From positions 1 through 19,209 of the IMG/VR virus record IMGVR_UViG_2684622670_000013: 19,209 nt of DNA. One strand, written 5' to 3'. Both the position numbers and the translations under genes were made by a program. Source of the stretch: a virus. Its lineage: Duplodnaviria; Heunggongvirae; Uroviricota; Caudoviricetes. The notes beneath the pieces are model-generated. The model did not search any database and was not told the DNA's origin. It saw only the letters and a program-made list of their open reading frames with translations. Shown here piece after piece: positions 8,481 to 11,961 of this stretch (positions are counted from its first letter, which is position 1; every line of letters starts with the position of its first letter).

Positions 8481-8759
8481 ATGAAAGCAATTGAACACTC
8501 TTACAAAGAGATGATGCACGCACGATTGGTTGCGAGTGGGTATACCCCAGAAGAAGCAGACAAACTCGTAAACCATGATGAAACAGACTTAGCCGCCGTG
8601 ATAAAGCTAAATTTGGCATATTCTCTATCCCTGTGTAGTTTAGAGAGCACACTCAGGTCCATTGTTGCGTCACCTAAATCAACCTCGGCAGACGCGGTAG
8701 AAGCGATGAAGTTGCTAGTAGAGCTATCAGCACGGCATGAGCACTTATTCAAGTCCTAA
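8481..8759 (+). CDS. Hypothetical small protein (92 aa)
   Basis: ORF with protein-like composition (EEADKLVNHDETDLAAVIK...) and a weak ribosome-binding site. Its 3' end overlaps, on the opposite strand, the 3' end of 8745..9161. Coding status uncertain. Confidence 0.4.
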   Translation: MKAIEHSYKEMMHARLVASGYTPEEADKLVNHDETDLAAVIKLNLAYSLSLCSLESTLRSIVASPKSTSADAVEAMKLLVELSARHEHLFKS

Positions 8760-9161
8760 CTTGTCATGGAGTATTTTTGCAAACAACTTCGTGGCAATCT
8801 GCTTTGCGGCCGCCATAGGGGCTTCTGAAAAATCTTTTTTAATTCTTTCTTGAATTGGATTTTGACTAAGAGCCATGGCAAAGTCATGACCTTCTGATGT
8901 GAGAACAATGTCACATTCACCACCATGAAGTATTCCGTCTCCGCTAAAGTAGATTCCGGTGATATCCTCAAAGGAAGAGTATTTCAACTCTCTATCTCTG
9001 ATAATCCCTTGGTCAACCAGTAGGGTCAGGTGAAAAATTAGCTTAGACAGATCTTCTTGGTTTTTTTCGTAGAAACCTAAATCTCTGATTGTTATGTATG
9101 GTTTATCGGAGGTTAAGAACGTCGACAACACTTCTTTCAGATAGTCATAATCAATTTTCAT
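8745..9161 (-). CDS. Hypothetical protein, 138 aa (possibly DUF2513-like winged-helix protein), last gene of the RHH operon
   Basis: GAAGGA ribosome-binding site. Starts 10 nt after the stop of the upstream RHH gene (9172..9408), implying co-transcription. The DUF2513 resemblance is recalled from the N-terminal pattern MKIDYDYLKEVL and is unverified. Confidence 0.62.
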   Translation of the reverse strand: MKIDYDYLKEVLSTFLTSDKPYITIRDLGFYEKNQEDLSKLIFHLTLLVDQGIIRDRELKYSSFEDITGIYFSGDGILHGGECDIVLTSEGHDFAMALSQNPIQERIKKDFSEAPMAAAKQIATKLFAKILHDKLGLE

Positions 9162-9171
9162 ACGTTGTCCT

Positions 9172-9408
9172 TCACTGTTTGTCCTTGCTGTACATTTTTG
9201 TTAAGGTCTCAAGAAGCGCCTCTTTGAACTTTTCAGCTTCACGAGAAGCGAATTCCTCTTTGCTACTCACATCGTTGGAAACAGCATCAAGGAGAATTTG
9301 AACAATTTCAGCATTCATAGATCTTCTGTTGTTCTTTGCACGCAACCTTATTTTCTCTTTTAACTCATTGGAAACGCGGATATTTATCTGCGGCTCTTCT
9401 CTAGACAT
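9172..9408 (-). CDS. mnt: Mnt-like ribbon-helix-helix repressor
   Basis: 78 aa. Its N-terminus INIRVSNELKEKIRLRAKNNRRSMNAEIVQIL parallels the P22 Mnt/Arc RHH motif (FNFRMP...AEANGRSMNSELLQIV), and the C-terminus LLETLTKMYSK resembles the Mnt C-terminal helix. GGAGG ribosome-binding site 5 nt upstream. Confidence 0.75.
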   Translation of the reverse strand: MSREEPQINIRVSNELKEKIRLRAKNNRRSMNAEIVQILLDAVSNDVSSKEEFASREAEKFKEALLETLTKMYSKDKQ

Positions 9409-9455
9409 GATGCCTCCGTGGTGTAACCGTAATGCAACCTCGTAATATCGTCTTC

Positions 9456-9698
9456 TTACTTGATGTTTACTTCCTTAATGGCTGCAACCTCTCTCTCAAG
9501 AGCTATTAATCTTTCGGTTAAGGAAGAAAGGCTAAGCGAGTGAACATTTTTATTTTCTTCTGCCCATGCACTTAGAGCTGCAACCATTTCTGCATTTAAA
9601 GATCTGCCATTCGCCTCAGCTAACGCGGTTAGGCGATCCTTTATCTCCACAGGAAGTCGAAGATTAACTTGTGGGTTCTTGTACCTGCGTTCAGACAT
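9456..9698 (-). CDS. Arc/Mnt-family ribbon-helix-helix DNA-binding protein (second paralog)
   Basis: 80 aa. VNLRLPVEIKDRLTALAEANGRSLNAEMVAAL matches the Arc-family RHH signature. First gene transcribed leftward from the divergent promoter region. Confidence 0.78.
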   Translation of the reverse strand: MSERRYKNPQVNLRLPVEIKDRLTALAEANGRSLNAEMVAALSAWAEENKNVHSLSLSSLTERLIALEREVAAIKEVNIK

Positions 9699-9803
9699 CA
9701 GCGTATCCTGAATAATTTTTTACCACAGGATATGTAGGTATCTATTGACTATCAATGCGTACCTAAATACTATGTATGCGTACCACATGCAGCGGAGGAT
9801 GCA
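9699..9803. promoter_or_regulatory. Divergent promoter/operator region (Pant-like rightward, Pmnt-like leftward)
   Basis: Candidate rightward promoter: -35 TTGACT (9745-9750), 17 bp spacer, -10 TACTAT (9768-9773), then GGAGG and ATG at 9804. A 13 bp palindrome ATTGA-cta-TCAAT (9744-9756) overlaps the -35. Direct repeats of GCGTACC (9758-9764 and 9778-9784) flank the -10. The repeats could be operator half-sites. Confidence 0.5.
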
Positions 9804-9944
9804 ATGAAGGTAAAAACACTGCGTATGCCAGAGAAGTTAGAAAAAATCCTTGAAGAGAAAGCAAAGGAAGAGTGTCGCTCATTTAGCGCAGAAGTAATTA
9901 AAAGGGTGTTGGACAGCTTGAAAAGAGAGGGGATAACAGTATGA
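9804..9944 (+). CDS. arc: Arc-like ribbon-helix-helix repressor (46 aa)
   Basis: Not in the ORF track (too short). The translation MKVKTLRMPEKLEKILEEKAKEECRSFSAEVIKRVLDSLKREGITV aligns position by position with P22 Arc (...FNLRWPREVLDLVRKVAEENGRSVNSEIYQRVMESFKKEGRIGA). GGAGG ribosome-binding site. Its stop overlaps the next gene's start (ATGA). Confidence 0.72.
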   Translation: MKVKTLRMPEKLEKILEEKAKEECRSFSAEVIKRVLDSLKREGITV

Positions 9945-10144
9945 GTAAAGAATGTTGTTTCTGCGGCATTAGCGAATCAGACGCTGATCAAACATACATT
10001 TACTCTAAAGAAACAGGTCGGATGCTGTGTAGTGACTGCGTGTTGGACATCATAAGATACAAGCATCTTGGATGTTCTGCCAGCATTAGCAATATAGGTG
10101 AAGTATACGAAGGGAAAGATATAACTGATAGAGCAGAAAGTTGA
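9941..10144 (+). CDS. Small zinc-finger protein, ClpX N-terminal C4-type-like (67 aa)
   Basis: CCFCGISE...(17 aa)...CSDCVLDIIR has the CxxC...CxxC spacing and flanking residues of the ClpX-type zinc-binding domain (CSFCGK...CDEC in ClpX). Translationally coupled to the arc-like gene and upstream of the antirepressor. Confidence 0.6.
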   Translation: MSKECCFCGISESDADQTYIYSKETGRMLCSDCVLDIIRYKHLGCSASISNIGEVYEGKDITDRAES

Positions 10145-10207
10145 AGCCCCAACTGCTGTAACAGTCAGGGCTTCGGTATCGTAAAACCACGCATAGGAAT
10201 TAACGAC

Positions 10208-11067
10208 ATGAAAAGTATAGCAACAGCGGTATCTACTATCAACGTGCCATTCCACGGCGCAGAGCTTTATGTTGTCAATCACAACGGCGAACCGTACACC
10301 CCAATGAAACCTATCGTTGAGGGAATGGGCTAGACTGGAAATCTCAACATAAGAAGATTTCTCAACGCTTCTCGAAGGGTATGGTGGAAATCACCATACC
10401 TTCTGCCGGTGGGGTGCAAGCCATGATTTGTATGGCTTTGCGAAAATTGGCAGCTTGGTTGAACAGCATCAGTCCTAACAAAGTCCGCCCTGAAATCCGC
10501 GACAAGGTAATCCAGTATCAGGAAGAGTGTGACGATGTGCTCTACGAGTACTGGACTAAAGGCCATGTGGTTAACCCGCGCAAAGCTAAAAAGACGTTGC
10601 CGGGAAAAATCACCACTGAACAGCAGGAAGCCATTAAACAACTCGTCATGAGTCGCGGTCAGTCTCTGCCAAAAGAAAAACAGGCGAAGGCGATGATCAC
10701 CATGTGGTCGTCACTGAAATCCCATTTTGGATGTTCGTACAAAGAAATCAGTGAGGAGCAGTTTACCGAAGCACTATCACTTGCGGCTCGTATTCCACTT
10801 GAAGGCGAATTCATCGGCAAGTCGGAACATAATGAGATGAGTTGTTTTGATTGGAGGATGAATGTTCATAACCTGAACTCGGCGTGCATTCACCTGGATG
10901 CCATGTACAGAATATGGAGAGACGAAATGGAACCCGCTTTACGATTGCTTGGCTCTCCGGTTGCGGCAAGATTTTACGGAAGAATTGCAGATTGCTATTC
11001 CGTAACTGCAAGCGTTAAGAAAAGTCTGGAGGATGCCGCAGGGCTGAAAGGCTTACAACCATTTTAA
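10208..11067 (+). pseudogene. ant: Phage antirepressor (P22 Ant-type, AR N-terminal domain), apparently disrupted by a 1-nt frameshift near 10327-10330
   Basis: ATG at 10208 encodes MKSIATAVSTINVPFHGAELYVVNHNGEPYTPMKPIVEGMG, then stops at 10331-10333. The next frame continues ...LDWKSQHKKISQRFSKGMVEITIPSAGG... to 11067. Joined, the sequence reads ...KPIVEGMGLDWKSQ..., which is the conserved core of the antirepressor N-terminal domain. The break lies in a GGG run. Confidence 0.62.
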
Positions 11068-11070
11068 CTA

Positions 11071-11089
11071 CCTGCACGAAAAGTGCAGG
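11071..11089 (+). other. Hairpin CCTGCAC-gaaaa-GTGCAGG immediately after the antirepressor stop
   Basis: Perfect 7 bp stem with a 5 nt loop; no following U-run. Forms a tandem pair with the downstream terminator. Confidence 0.4.
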
Positions 11090-11107
11090 TCAATAACCAA
11101 CGCAACG

Positions 11108-11133
11108 ACCCAGCTTCGGCTGGGTTTTTGTTT
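11108..11133 (+). terminator. Rho-independent terminator (ACCCAGC-ttcg-GCTGGGT followed by TTTTGTTT)
   Basis: GC-rich 7 bp stem, TTCG tetraloop, T-rich tract. Lies 40 nt after the antirepressor stop and 12 nt before the ATG at 11146. Confidence 0.72.
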
Positions 11134-11145
11134 AATGGAGAGTAG

Positions 11146-11961
11146 ATGGGCATAATCGATTTAAACACAGCAGACATATTCAATGCTATCGGTGGTGGCT
11201 CTCCGCTTTCGATCATCGACAGCGTTCTGCATCCCCAGTATGTGATTCGTGACAGGGAAACTGGCGAGGTTGCTCTTGAGTTCAGTGGTATGGCATCCGT
11301 ACAGCCAAGTGGAAGGGCGCAAATAACAAACGCTCCGGTGGAGAAAGGGAAATACCAGTCCATCAACAAAGTTAAAGAACCAGCCAGAGTAAGATGCGCA
11401 ATCATCGTAAATGGTCTTACTGGTTTTTCCGGCAATATCCCGAATATTTTCGATCTCACATTCACAAGCCAGAACAGCACGCTGAACACAATCAAAACGA
11501 TGCTGTCCTCTGCAAAAACATACGATATTGAAACGCCAAAGGAAACTCTGGAGAGTTTCGACCTTGTTGACCACTATTACGAAGTTAACTCTCAAAAAGG
11601 GGTGACTCTTCTGACGGTTTATCTTGATTTTCAGGAGGTCATTCAGCAAATGGAGGTTATCCTCTCTAGCTCTCAGTCAGAACAGAAGCCAACGGATAAC
11701 AATAAGTCACAGGGAGATGTAGGAGTTGATCCGCAAATAACCAATGGCGGAGCCAGGGAATCTACTGTCGATGAGCTAAGTGAGTCATGGTCATCACTGA
11801 AGTCATCTGTTGGCGACATCACTGGAAAAATCTCTGACACAATCAAGACTGAATTCCAGAGTGCTCTTGATACGGTGTCCAAACCAATACTCGAAGTTAC
11901 AAACAGCGCAACAAAAAAAGCGGCAGATATTGCAAAAAATATAGTTAAGGCGAGCACATGA
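11146..11961 (+). CDS. Phage tail/baseplate-associated protein, function unknown
   Basis: 271 aa; first gene of the resumed plus-strand late operon. Its stop overlaps the next gene's start. Low-complexity Ser/Thr-rich C-terminus. Confidence 0.6.
   Translation: MGIIDLNTADIFNAIGGGSPLSIIDSVLHPQYVIRDRETGEVALEFSGMASVQPSGRAQITNAPVEKGKYQSINKVKEPARVRCAIIVNGLTGFSGNIPNIFDLTFTSQNSTLNTIKTMLSSAKTYDIETPKETLESFDLVDHYYEVNSQKGVTLLTVYLDFQEVIQQMEVILSSSQSEQKPTDNNKSQGDVGVDPQITNGGARESTVDELSESWSSLKSSVGDITGKISDTIKTEFQSALDTVSKPILEVTNSATKKAADIAKNIVKAST

What the first reader, a model, noticed from the sequence alone, without database searches (positions are those of the whole stretch)
10208..10381. Antirepressor gene split by a single-base frameshift in a G-run
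A 41 aa ORF ending ...KPIVEGMG-stop is followed, one frame over, by ...LDWKSQHKKISQRFSKGMVEI... Together they reconstruct the conserved antirepressor N-terminal core. The junction is at GGG (10327-10329), where an intact gene would need one more base. The antirepressor is therefore a pseudogene, a sequencing error at a homopolymer, or a slippage-prone switch. Inactivating ant while keeping mnt/arc would fit prophage domestication.
Basis: partly seen in the sequence, partly recalled or inferred. Interest (0 to 1): 0.5.

Follow-up and report, generated by a model that had tools for sequence, protein, structure and literature searches.

The report
Frameshifted prophage antirepressor (ant) pseudogene
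A prophage's antirepressor gene (ant) has lost one G from a GGGG run, which splits it into a 41-codon stub and an out-of-frame remainder; the deletion looks real and private to this strain, and it is an ordinary case of prophage gene decay, not a regulatory device.

Summary
ORF 10208-10333 (41 aa, ...EGMG-TAG) and the -1 frame running to 11067 are two halves of one P22-type antirepressor gene. Adding one base after GGG (10327-10329) gives a 286-aa protein with one continuous P22_AR_N domain (E 5.8e-45).

- **Homologues:** every homologue checked across this junction has the extra base. That covers 102 complete E. coli genomes, 36 IMG/VR contigs and 21 metagenome contigs (G in 54 and T in 6 of the fetched loci). 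The closest intact allele is 98.3% identical, with the same length and stop.
- **Not an assembler artefact:** a separate Logan re-assembly of run DRR017159 is identical over 6,126 bases, including GGG-CTAGAC. In 12.3 kb aligned to a related prophage, 170 homopolymer runs of 4 or more bases show no indel.
- **Not a switch:** no homologue shares the shifted arrangement, G_GGC is a poor -1 slippery motif, and a 3-4 base run is too short for phase variation.
- **Context:** a complete P22-like immI module (two mnt-like genes, arc, sar RNA, terminator), in an argW-integrated myovirus-like prophage of a non-coli Escherichia.
- **Second lesion:** an IS66-family element interrupts a head-tail gene of the same prophage. 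This points to early decay, not demonstrated domestication.

Interest is low.

The parts
10208..10333 (+). ant 5' fragment: codons 1-41 plus premature TAG; would give a 41-aa peptide
   Evidence: ORF list and translation. Pfam P22_AR_N profile positions 2-31, E 3.3e-8.
10327..10329 (+). GGG run, the site of the 1-bp deletion. Intact alleles read GGGG (54 loci) or GGGT (6 loci), i.e. Gly41 GGG/GGT.
   Evidence: Alignments. Pattern scans with an optional base. 81-nt query against 5,426 E. coli genomes: best full-length hits span 82 nt at 98.8% identity, none at 100%.
10330..11067 (+). ant 3' fragment (codons 42-286 plus stop) in the -1 frame. It is still fully open. Its first ATG is at 10381 (228-aa ORF).
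   Evidence: Translation. Pfam P22_AR_N positions 53-114, E 2e-23. Same stop and C-terminus as the intact 286-aa Ant of E. coli Z1323CEC0001 and L057.
10378..10400 (+). Hairpin GGUAUGGUGG-AAAUC-ACCAUACC that buries ATG 10381. The only SD-like AAGGG lies 1 nt from the ATG. Independent translation of the 3' fragment is therefore expected to be poor.
   Evidence: MFE and centroid fold; sequence reading. Inference, not shown.
10139..10206 (-). sar antisense RNA, complementary to the ant ribosome-binding region
   Evidence: Rfam RF00262: 82.3 bits against a gathering score of 43, E 5.5e-17, model positions 1-68 of 68.
10214..10242 (-). Psar-like promoter inside ant codons 3-12 (TTGATA-17-TATACT with an extended TG)
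   Evidence: Consensus scan, 10 of 12 matches. Its position is right for a transcript starting near 10206.
9804..9944 (+). arc (46 aa, Arc-family ribbon-helix-helix repressor), first gene of the rightward ant operon
   Evidence: Pfam Arc, E 3.7e-8. Annotated 'Arc family DNA-binding protein' in relatives.
9941..10144 (+). 67-aa CxxC...CxxC ORF between arc and ant, start overlapping the arc stop (ATGA). Conserved phage family of unknown function.
   Evidence: phrog_7150, E 3.4e-50, full length. No Pfam hit. Called as a 67-aa gene in CUS-3-like loci L068-L072.
9456..9698 (-). Leftward mnt-like Arc-family repressor gene (80 aa)
   Evidence: Pfam Arc, E 1.8e-10.
9172..9408 (-). Second leftward Arc-family repressor gene (78 aa)
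   Evidence: Pfam Arc, E 3e-12. CUS-3 also carries two 'mnt' genes here.
9727..9773 (.). Overlapping divergent promoter-like sites between the mnt-like gene and arc (candidate Pmnt/Pant)
   Evidence: Consensus scan: + strand 9745-9773 and - strand 9755-9727, 9 of 12 matches each. Weak evidence, because the number found does not exceed shuffled controls.
11107..11136 (+). Intrinsic terminator after ant (GACCCAGC-TTCG-GCTGGGTT followed by a T-run)
   Evidence: Terminator scan. It corresponds to 'bsq1 boundary sequence' of CUS-3.
1..1587 (+). Right end of an IS66-family insertion sequence (508-aa transposase ORF 31-1557; terminal ...CCGCTTAC at 1580-1587). A second lesion of the same prophage.
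   Evidence: Pfam DDE_Tnp_IS66 1e-102, plus zf-IS66, LZ_Tnp_IS66 and IS66_C. phrog_688 transposase. Junction sequence.
1588..1767 (+). 3' remnant (last 60 of 143 codons) of a DUF4054 head-tail gene cut by the IS66 element
   Evidence: 100% aa identity to codons 85-143 and the stop of the DUF4054 gene in the WS4437A-1 prophage.

Best explanation
A genuine, recent, strain-private deletion of one G from a GGGG run (Gly41 codon GGG followed by CTA) has inactivated the P22-type antirepressor gene ant. The gene sits in an argW-integrated prophage of a non-coli Escherichia.

- **Mechanism of origin (inferred):** ordinary replication slippage at a short homopolymer.
- **Consequence:** the ribosome reads codons 1-41 and meets TAG at once. 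The 41-aa stub carries only about a quarter of the P22_AR_N domain. The remaining 245 codons lie in the -1 frame with no usable start: the first ATG (10381) is 1 nt from its only SD-like element and sits inside a hairpin stem. The allele is therefore expected to be null.
- **Why it is tolerated:** in a lysogen ant is kept silent by Mnt, Arc and sar, and in P22 ant is dispensable for lytic growth and lysogeny (established knowledge). Its loss costs the prophage nothing immediately, so the lesion is neutral decay.
- **Age:** the 3' part has no further lesions and differs from the closest intact allele by 11 synonymous and 3 non-synonymous codons, so the event is young.
- **Supporting context:** an IS66-family insertion in a head-tail gene of the same prophage shows that the element is already accumulating inactivating hits.
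For: - **Gene and lesion:** (frames; one domain split across two frames; single-base gap at ATGGG-GCTAGAC).
- **Homologues are a single ORF:** CUS-3 ant 924 nt, E200086 924 nt, Z1323CEC0001 861 nt, which is the length the window would have with one more base. Of the ant ORFs that begin with the same 20-nt start sequence in the fetched loci, 31 are complete: 28 of 307 aa, 2 of 286 aa and 1 of 288 aa.
- **No other carrier:** 102 E. coli genomes cover the junction and the best identity is 98.8%, spanning 82 nt in the record for the 81-nt query. All 36 IMG/VR and 21 metagenome matches are 37 nt long, i.e. they have the extra base. The extra base is G in 54 and T in 6 fetched loci. An exact-peptide look-up in about 15 billion proteins finds the stop-terminated 41-aa product only in GCA_001514785.1 and in the Logan assembly of DRR017159. 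The other eight contigs examined simply end there and read GGGG or GGGT.
- **Real in the data:** the Logan contig is 100% identical over 6,126 nt, including the GGG. There are zero indels in 12,311 aligned bases containing 170 homopolymers of 4 or more bases, up to 8.
- **Young lesion:** 15 differences in 861 nt from L057, 11 synonymous and 3 non-synonymous.
- **Module context:** sar, Arc-family genes, terminator and Psar.
- **Precedent:** degraded ant genes in 'ant morons' of P22-like phages (HK620, Scho1) are described in PMC2629481.
- **Second lesion:** IS66 insertion in the DUF4054 gene.
Against: - No read pile-up was seen.
- DRR017159 is probably the same read set that produced the GenBank assembly. 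Both are DDBJ records and the sequences are identical, but this link is inferred. The re-assembly therefore excludes an assembler or polishing artefact, not a systematic read error.
- The sequencing platform is unknown.
- A single lesion in an otherwise perfect ORF is also what a consensus error would look like.
- Loss of function is inferred from domain disruption, not measured.
Confidence: 0.8

Rival explanations
1. Sequencing or consensus error: the strain really has GGGG and an intact ant, and one G was dropped at the homopolymer in the reads.
For: The lesion is a -1 change in a homopolymer, the classic error type. The rest of the gene is flawless. No other genome has the allele. The source is a draft assembly.
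Against: An independent Logan assembly from the raw run gives the identical sequence. There are zero indels in 12.3 kb against a 98.5-98.8% identical complete-genome relative, across 170 homopolymers of 4 or more bases, including 53 of 5 or more. A 4-base run is short for a systematic consensus error.
Confidence: 0.13
2. Leaky translational correction. A -1 slip of tRNA-Gly would restore the frame, either at G_GGC next to the TAG stop (10327-10333) or at G_GGA (10321-10324). At G_GGC the product would be exactly wild-type Ant. The allele would then be a strongly attenuated ant, not a null.
For: The -1 frame is open from 10321, so a slip on either Gly codon rescues the protein. A stop codon in the A site is known to favour P-site slippage ('shifty stops'; my knowledge, and the concept of translational correction of indels is reviewed in PMC5009743). 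A weak A/U-rich hairpin starts about 7 nt downstream at 10337-10362.
Against: The arrangement is not conserved: none of about 160 homologues has it, so it cannot be a programmed site. In E. coli reporters, Z_ZZ.N tetramers without a stimulator are barely above background (about 0.15% against 0.11%). G_GG.C is not among the six motifs that respond even to a strong pseudoknot (PMC4066793). The downstream hairpin is also present in in-frame alleles and the fold z-score is only -1.8.
Confidence: 0.05
3. Phase-variable (contingency) switch: the G-run expands and contracts at the DNA level to turn ant on and off in the population.
For: The lesion is in a homopolymer and is reversible in principle by a +1 slip.
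Against: The tract is only 3-4 bases. Known phase-variable tracts are typically 7 or more (established knowledge). There is no length polymorphism among about 160 alleles, and six alleles read GGGT, breaking the run with a synonymous change.
Confidence: 0.01
4. The two ORFs are normally separate genes.
For: Gene callers annotate a 41-aa and a 228-aa (or 214-aa) gene in this genome.
Against: Every homologue is one ORF of 286-307 aa, with a single Pfam domain spanning the junction.
Confidence: 0.01

Closest known systems
Phage P22 immunity I (immI) region / 'ant moron' of P22-like phages (mnt, arc, sar, ant); nearest sequenced example phage CUS-3
   Same: Same gene order and orientation: leftward mnt-like repressor(s), rightward arc then ant, sar antisense RNA across the ant ribosome-binding site with its promoter inside the ant 5' end, and a terminator after ant. 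About 97% nucleotide identity to CUS-3 over arc through ant codon ~205. Integrated at argW with an IntS-type integrase, like CUS-3.
   Different: ant is frameshifted here. There are two Arc-family leftward genes and an extra 67-aa ORF between arc and ant (as in CUS-3-like morons, unlike P22). The ant C-terminal 80 residues are a different cassette. The module sits in a contractile-tail prophage, between the tape-measure/transglycosylase gene and the baseplate genes, not between gene 16 and the tailspike of a podovirus.
Degraded ant genes reported in the ant morons of HK620 and Scho1 (Villafane et al. 2008, PMC2629481)
   Same: Loss of a functional antirepressor within an otherwise recognisable ant moron, interpreted there as a gene 'no longer needed'.
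   Different: Those are described as degraded remnants. Here the gene is complete apart from one missing base, so the event is much more recent.
Intact 286-aa Ant alleles: metagenome contig Ga0153950_1001451 (L057) and E. coli Z1323CEC0001 (WP_244576973.1)
   Same: Same length, start, stop and C-terminal cassette. L057 is 98.3% identical at the DNA level.
   Different: They carry GGGG (L057) or GGGT-ATG (Z1323CEC0001) at codons 41-42 and are in frame.
Programmed -1 frameshift sites using a Gly slip (for example lambda G/GT, G_GGA_AAG)
   Same: A tRNA-Gly could re-pair from GGC or GGA to GGG one base back, and the -1 frame then encodes the rest of the protein.
   Different: There is no heptamer, no conservation, no demonstrated stimulator, and the tetramer is not shifty in E. 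coli reporters. This is a resemblance in form only.

Membership tests
P22-type antirepressor Ant (Pfam P22_AR_N; PHROG 524/245) | N-terminal P22_AR_N domain | tested here: met
   The repaired 286-aa sequence scores E 5.8e-45 over profile positions 2-114 of 115. It also matches phrog_524 at 7.6e-75 and phrog_245 at 1e-67, both 'anti-repressor Ant'.
P22-type antirepressor Ant (Pfam P22_AR_N; PHROG 524/245) | One uninterrupted reading frame encoding the whole protein | tested here: not met
   Stop after codon 41, with the remainder in the -1 frame. It is therefore a pseudogene of the family, not a functional member.
P22-type antirepressor Ant (Pfam P22_AR_N; PHROG 524/245) | Binds and inactivates a c2/CI-type prophage repressor | not testable with these tools
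   No solved structure of a relative is available (0 PDB hits). This needs an induction or pull-down assay.
P22 immI module | sar antisense RNA overlapping the ant translation start | tested here: met
   RF00262: 82.3 bits against a gathering score of 43, full length, at 10139-10206 on the minus strand. It ends 1 nt before the ant ATG.
P22 immI module | Arc-family repressor upstream of ant in the same operon, and a divergently transcribed Mnt-type repressor | tested here: met
   Pfam Arc hits for 9804-9944 (+), 9456-9698 (-) and 9172-9408 (-). The Mnt-specific C-terminal domain (PF11423) was not detected in the window's copies but is detected in CUS-3-like loci. The name 'mnt-like' therefore rests on position and fold.
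P22 immI module | Overlapping divergent promoters Pant/Pmnt with Arc and Mnt operators | tested here: inconclusive
   Two overlapping promoter-like sites at 9727-9773, but the scan finds no more sites than in shuffled sequence. Operators were not analysed.
Programmed -1 ribosomal frameshift | The frameshifted gene arrangement is conserved among homologues | tested here: not met
   None of 102 E. coli genomes, 36 IMG/VR contigs or 21 metagenome contigs has it.
Programmed -1 ribosomal frameshift | Efficient slippery motif (X_XXY_YYZ, or a shifty Z_ZZN) | tested here: not met
   The site is G_GGC_UAG (or G_GGA_AUG). G_GG.C is not among the tetramers above background in PMC4066793.
Programmed -1 ribosomal frameshift | Stimulatory RNA structure 5-9 nt downstream | tested here: inconclusive
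   A weak A/U-rich hairpin at 10337-10362. The fold z-score for the whole region is -1.8. The same sequence is present in in-frame alleles.
Phase-variable homopolymer (contingency locus) | Long tract with length polymorphism between isolates | tested here: not met
   The tract is 3 bases here and 4 elsewhere. It is invariant in length across about 160 alleles, and 6 alleles read GGGT.
Assembly or sequencing artefact | Not reproducible in an independent assembly; accompanied by other homopolymer indels | tested here: not met
   The Logan assembly of DRR017159 is identical. There are no indels in 12.3 kb or 170 homopolymers. Read-level confirmation is not possible with these tools.

The most novel reading that the evidence does not exclude
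The deletion created, by accident, a 'shifty stop' (G_GGC_UAG, with a hairpin about 7 nt downstream). There, a rare -1 slip of tRNA-Gly would yield Ant of exactly wild-type sequence. The prophage would then keep a roughly 100-1000-fold attenuated antirepressor, not a null. This would be a natural example of translational correction of an indel that tunes a toxic regulator.
Probability: 0.04. Interest if true: 0.35.

Novelty: already known. Interest (0 to 1): 0.1.

Why it matters
It matters little beyond annotation. The two ORFs should be annotated as one ant pseudogene (frameshift at codon 41), not as two small genes.

The case is a clean example of very early prophage decay: two young inactivating hits in an otherwise intact element, a 1-bp deletion in ant and an IS66 insertion in a head-tail gene.

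If ant is null, this prophage cannot use Ant to lift repression of itself or of co-resident prophages. That could slightly stabilise lysogeny in this strain.

It does not open a new question about antirepressor biology or recoding.

Tried and rejected
- **Programmed or leaky frameshift.** I checked conservation (none), motif shiftiness in the literature (PMC4066793: not shifty) and downstream structure (weak). Rejected as a designed feature and kept only as a low-probability leak.
- **Phase variation.** Rejected on tract length and the absence of length polymorphism.
- **Deletion produced by recombination at a mosaic joint.** Allele families diverge exactly after ATGGG, and eight short-read contigs end there. 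However, intact alleles identical to the window on both sides of the junction exist (11 E. coli genomes at 81 of 82 bases; L057), so a simple 1-bp deletion suffices.
- **General indel-prone assembly.** Rejected.
- **Independent expression of the 228-aa ORF.** Judged unlikely: SD spacing is 1 nt and the ATG is in a hairpin. The alternative ATG at 10423 chosen by Logan's gene caller would remove 72 residues of the domain.
- **PDB sequence search** for an Ant relative: no hit.
- **Literature search** for the accession or run identifiers, to name the organism: nothing found.
- **Genome-contig scan** for the junction: no match.
- **Structure prediction and the large protein searches** were not run, because the answer did not depend on them.

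Full report
**Observation.**
- From ATG 10208 the frame reads 41 codons (...KPIVEGMG) and stops at TAG 10331-10333.
- The frame one base back is open from 10321. It reads GNG-LDWKSQHKKISQRFSKGMVEI... without interruption to the stop at 11065-11067. Its first ATG is at 10381, giving a 228-aa ORF.
- Separately, the 41-aa piece matches Pfam P22_AR_N profile positions 2-31 (E 3.3e-8) and the 228-aa piece matches positions 53-114 (E 2e-23).
- Inserting one base after GGG 10327-10329 gives a 286-aa protein that matches the domain in one stretch, positions 2-114 of 115 (E 5.8e-45). It also matches the PHROG 'anti-repressor Ant' families at 7.6e-75 and 1e-67.

**Where exactly the lesion is.** DNA alignments with phage CUS-3, E. 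coli E200086, E. coli Z1323CEC0001 and metagenome locus L057 all place a single one-base gap in the window, within ...GAG GGA ATG GG(G) CTA GAC TGG.... In those relatives ant is one ORF.
- It is 924 nt in CUS-3 and E200086.
- It is 861 nt in Z1323CEC0001, which is exactly the window's 860 nt (10208-11067) plus one base, with the same C-terminus ...LKGLQPF.
- L057 encodes an intact 286-aa Ant that differs from the repaired window gene at 15 of 861 nucleotides: 11 synonymous and 3 non-synonymous codons.

The 3' part therefore shows no decay beyond the frameshift, and the lesion is young.

**How common the allele is.** It was found in no other genome.
- An 81-nt query across the junction finds 102 complete E. 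coli genomes with full-length matches. The best reach 98.8% identity and span 82 nt in the record, so all carry the extra base. None is 100% identical.
- A pattern with an optional base at the site matches 36 IMG/VR and 21 metagenome contigs, all at the 37-nt length. It matches nothing in the species-representative genomes.
- Among all fetched loci the extra base is G in 54 and T in 6, both giving a Gly codon. Synonymous variation at this position is what a coding frame running through the site predicts.
- An exact look-up of the 41-aa product returned 12 contigs, of which 10 were shown. Two of these carry the stop: the source record and a Logan assembly. The other eight are contigs that end at that point and read GGGG or GGGT.

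**Is it real?** The window is bases 3-19211 of BBVP01000002.1 (GCA_001514785.1).
- The Logan project's separate assembly of run DRR017159 is identical to the window over 6,126 bases, including GGG-CTAGAC. This excludes an assembler or polishing artefact.
- I infer, but cannot show, that this run is the read set behind the GenBank assembly. A systematic read error is therefore not formally excluded.
- Against a read error: four blocks totalling 12,311 bases align to the related WS4437A-1 prophage without a single indel. The two large blocks (11.7 kb) are 98.5-98.8% identical. These blocks hold 170 homopolymers of 4 or more bases, 53 of them 5-8 long.
- I put the probability of a real mutation at about 0.8-0.85.

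**Consequence (inferred).**
- Translation ends after residue 41, inside the P22_AR_N domain.
- The 3' fragment lacks a credible start. The AAGGG before ATG 10381 is 1 nt away, and the ATG lies in the stem of a 10-11 bp hairpin at 10378-10400.
- An internal ATG at 10423 would give a protein missing 72 residues of the domain.
- The allele is most likely null.

In P22, ant is dispensable for growth and lysogeny and is kept off in lysogens by Mnt (established knowledge; the primary papers are listed in PMC2629481). A silent, non-essential gene is a natural early casualty.

**Rivals.**
- *Programmed or leaky -1 frameshift.* A slip of tRNA-Gly from GGC to GGG at G_GGC_UAG would regenerate the wild-type protein exactly. 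A slip at G_GGA (10321-10324) would give a protein with M40N. However, no homologue has the arrangement. G_GG.C was not above background in the systematic E. coli tetramer study, even with a pseudoknot: motifs alone gave about 0.15% against 0.11% background (PMC4066793). The hairpin 7 nt downstream is weak and is also present in in-frame alleles. At most this is a trace leak.
- *Phase variation.* Excluded by the tract length and the absence of length polymorphism.
- *Two normal genes.* Excluded by every homologue.

**Context.** The gene sits in a complete P22-type immI module ('ant moron').
- Two leftward Arc-family genes lie at 9172-9408 and 9456-9698, and arc at 9804-9944.
- A conserved 67-aa CxxC ORF of unknown function (phrog_7150) lies between arc and ant.
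- The sar antisense RNA is at 10139-10206 on the minus strand (Rfam 82.3 bits). A Psar-like promoter lies within ant codons 3-12, and an intrinsic terminator at 11107-11136.
- Unlike P22 and CUS-3, the module is embedded in a contractile-tail prophage (DUF3383 sheath-like gene, baseplate J, wedge), between the tape-measure/transglycosylase gene and the baseplate genes. Several E. coli prophages share this arrangement.
- The prophage is integrated next to tRNA-Arg(CCU) and mlaA-fadL-fadI-fadJ, with an IntS-type integrase.
- The host flank is only 88.5-88.8% identical to all 5,426 E. coli genomes. The host is therefore another Escherichia species. E. albertii is my guess, untested.

**A second lesion.** Window 1-1587 is the right end of an IS66-family element (transposase ORF 31-1557; Pfam 1e-102; terminal ...CCGCTTAC). 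It interrupts a DUF4054 head-tail gene after codon 84. The remaining 60 codons (1588-1767) are 100% identical in protein to the WS4437A-1 copy. Two fresh inactivating hits in one prophage fit early decay.

**Comparison with what is known.** Degraded ant genes in ant morons (HK620, Scho1), and the high genetic flux of this region, were described by Villafane et al. 2008 (PMC2629481). A metagenome contig (L047) carries an independent 8-bp deletion in the same gene. The finding is a correct and well-localised pseudogene call of a known kind. Novelty is nil and interest is low.

Noticed in passing
window 1-1767: The right end of an IS66-family insertion sequence (508-aa transposase ORF 31-1557, terminus ...CCGCTTAC at 1580-1587) interrupts a DUF4054 head-tail gene. 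Only its last 60 codons (1588-1767) remain. The source contig starts here, so the left junction is on another contig.
   Followed up: yes
window 2534-3067 (likely start ATG 2564): A free-standing HNH_3 + AP2 homing-endonuclease-like gene sits between two neck/tail genes (Pfam 5.2e-21 and 3.9e-7). It is absent from the otherwise 98% identical WS4437A-1 prophage.
   Followed up: partly
window 10139-10242, minus strand: A full-length sar antisense RNA (Rfam RF00262, 82.3 bits) ends 1 nt before the ant ATG. A Psar-like extended -10 promoter lies inside ant codons 3-12. sar also overlaps the last codons of the 67-aa ORF.
   Followed up: partly
window 9941-10144: A 67-aa ORF with CCFCG...CSDC (a zinc-ribbon-like spacing that recalls the ClpX N-terminal zinc finger; resemblance from memory only). 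It is ATGA-coupled to arc and matches phrog_7150 (unknown function) over its full length. It has no Pfam hit. It is conserved in CUS-3-like ant morons, where older annotation shows only a 'boundary sequence'.
   Followed up: partly
window 10208-10330; loci L068-L075: The first 41 codons of ant are almost invariant in DNA across allele families that then diverge sharply right after ATGGG. Eight unrelated short-read contigs end exactly there, which marks an assembly-graph branch point. The frameshift site thus coincides with a mosaic boundary. Intact alleles identical on both flanks exist, so recombination is not needed to explain the deletion.
   Followed up: partly
L047 (metagenome contig OBZD01008706.1), about 670-680: An independent ant lesion: an 8-bp deletion (CACCATAC) inside the hairpin that corresponds to window 10378-10400, truncating Ant at 87 aa. 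This may be a real mutation or a low-coverage assembly error.
   Followed up: partly
L076 1-6000 (host flank of the window's int end): The prophage is integrated at tRNA-Arg(CCU), next to mlaA-fadL-yfcZ-fadI-fadJ. The host flank is only 88.5-88.8% identical to every one of 5,426 E. coli genomes, so the host is a different Escherichia species. The prophage genes themselves are 93-98% identical to E. coli prophages.
   Followed up: partly
window 6131-11146 compared with L001 (CUS-3): A P22-type ant moron, normally found between the ejection-protein gene and the tailspike gene of podoviruses, sits here in a contractile-tail prophage between the tape-measure/transglycosylase gene and the baseplate genes. 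It is flanked by the same 'boundary sequences' annotated in CUS-3 (bsq1, bsq2).
   Followed up: no
L004 3058-3441 (E. coli Z1323CEC0013): RefSeq flags this ant as 'incomplete; missing C-terminus', yet the DNA encodes an uninterrupted 288-aa ORF with the normal stop. The pseudogene flag looks like an annotation artefact of a mosaic allele.
   Followed up: partly
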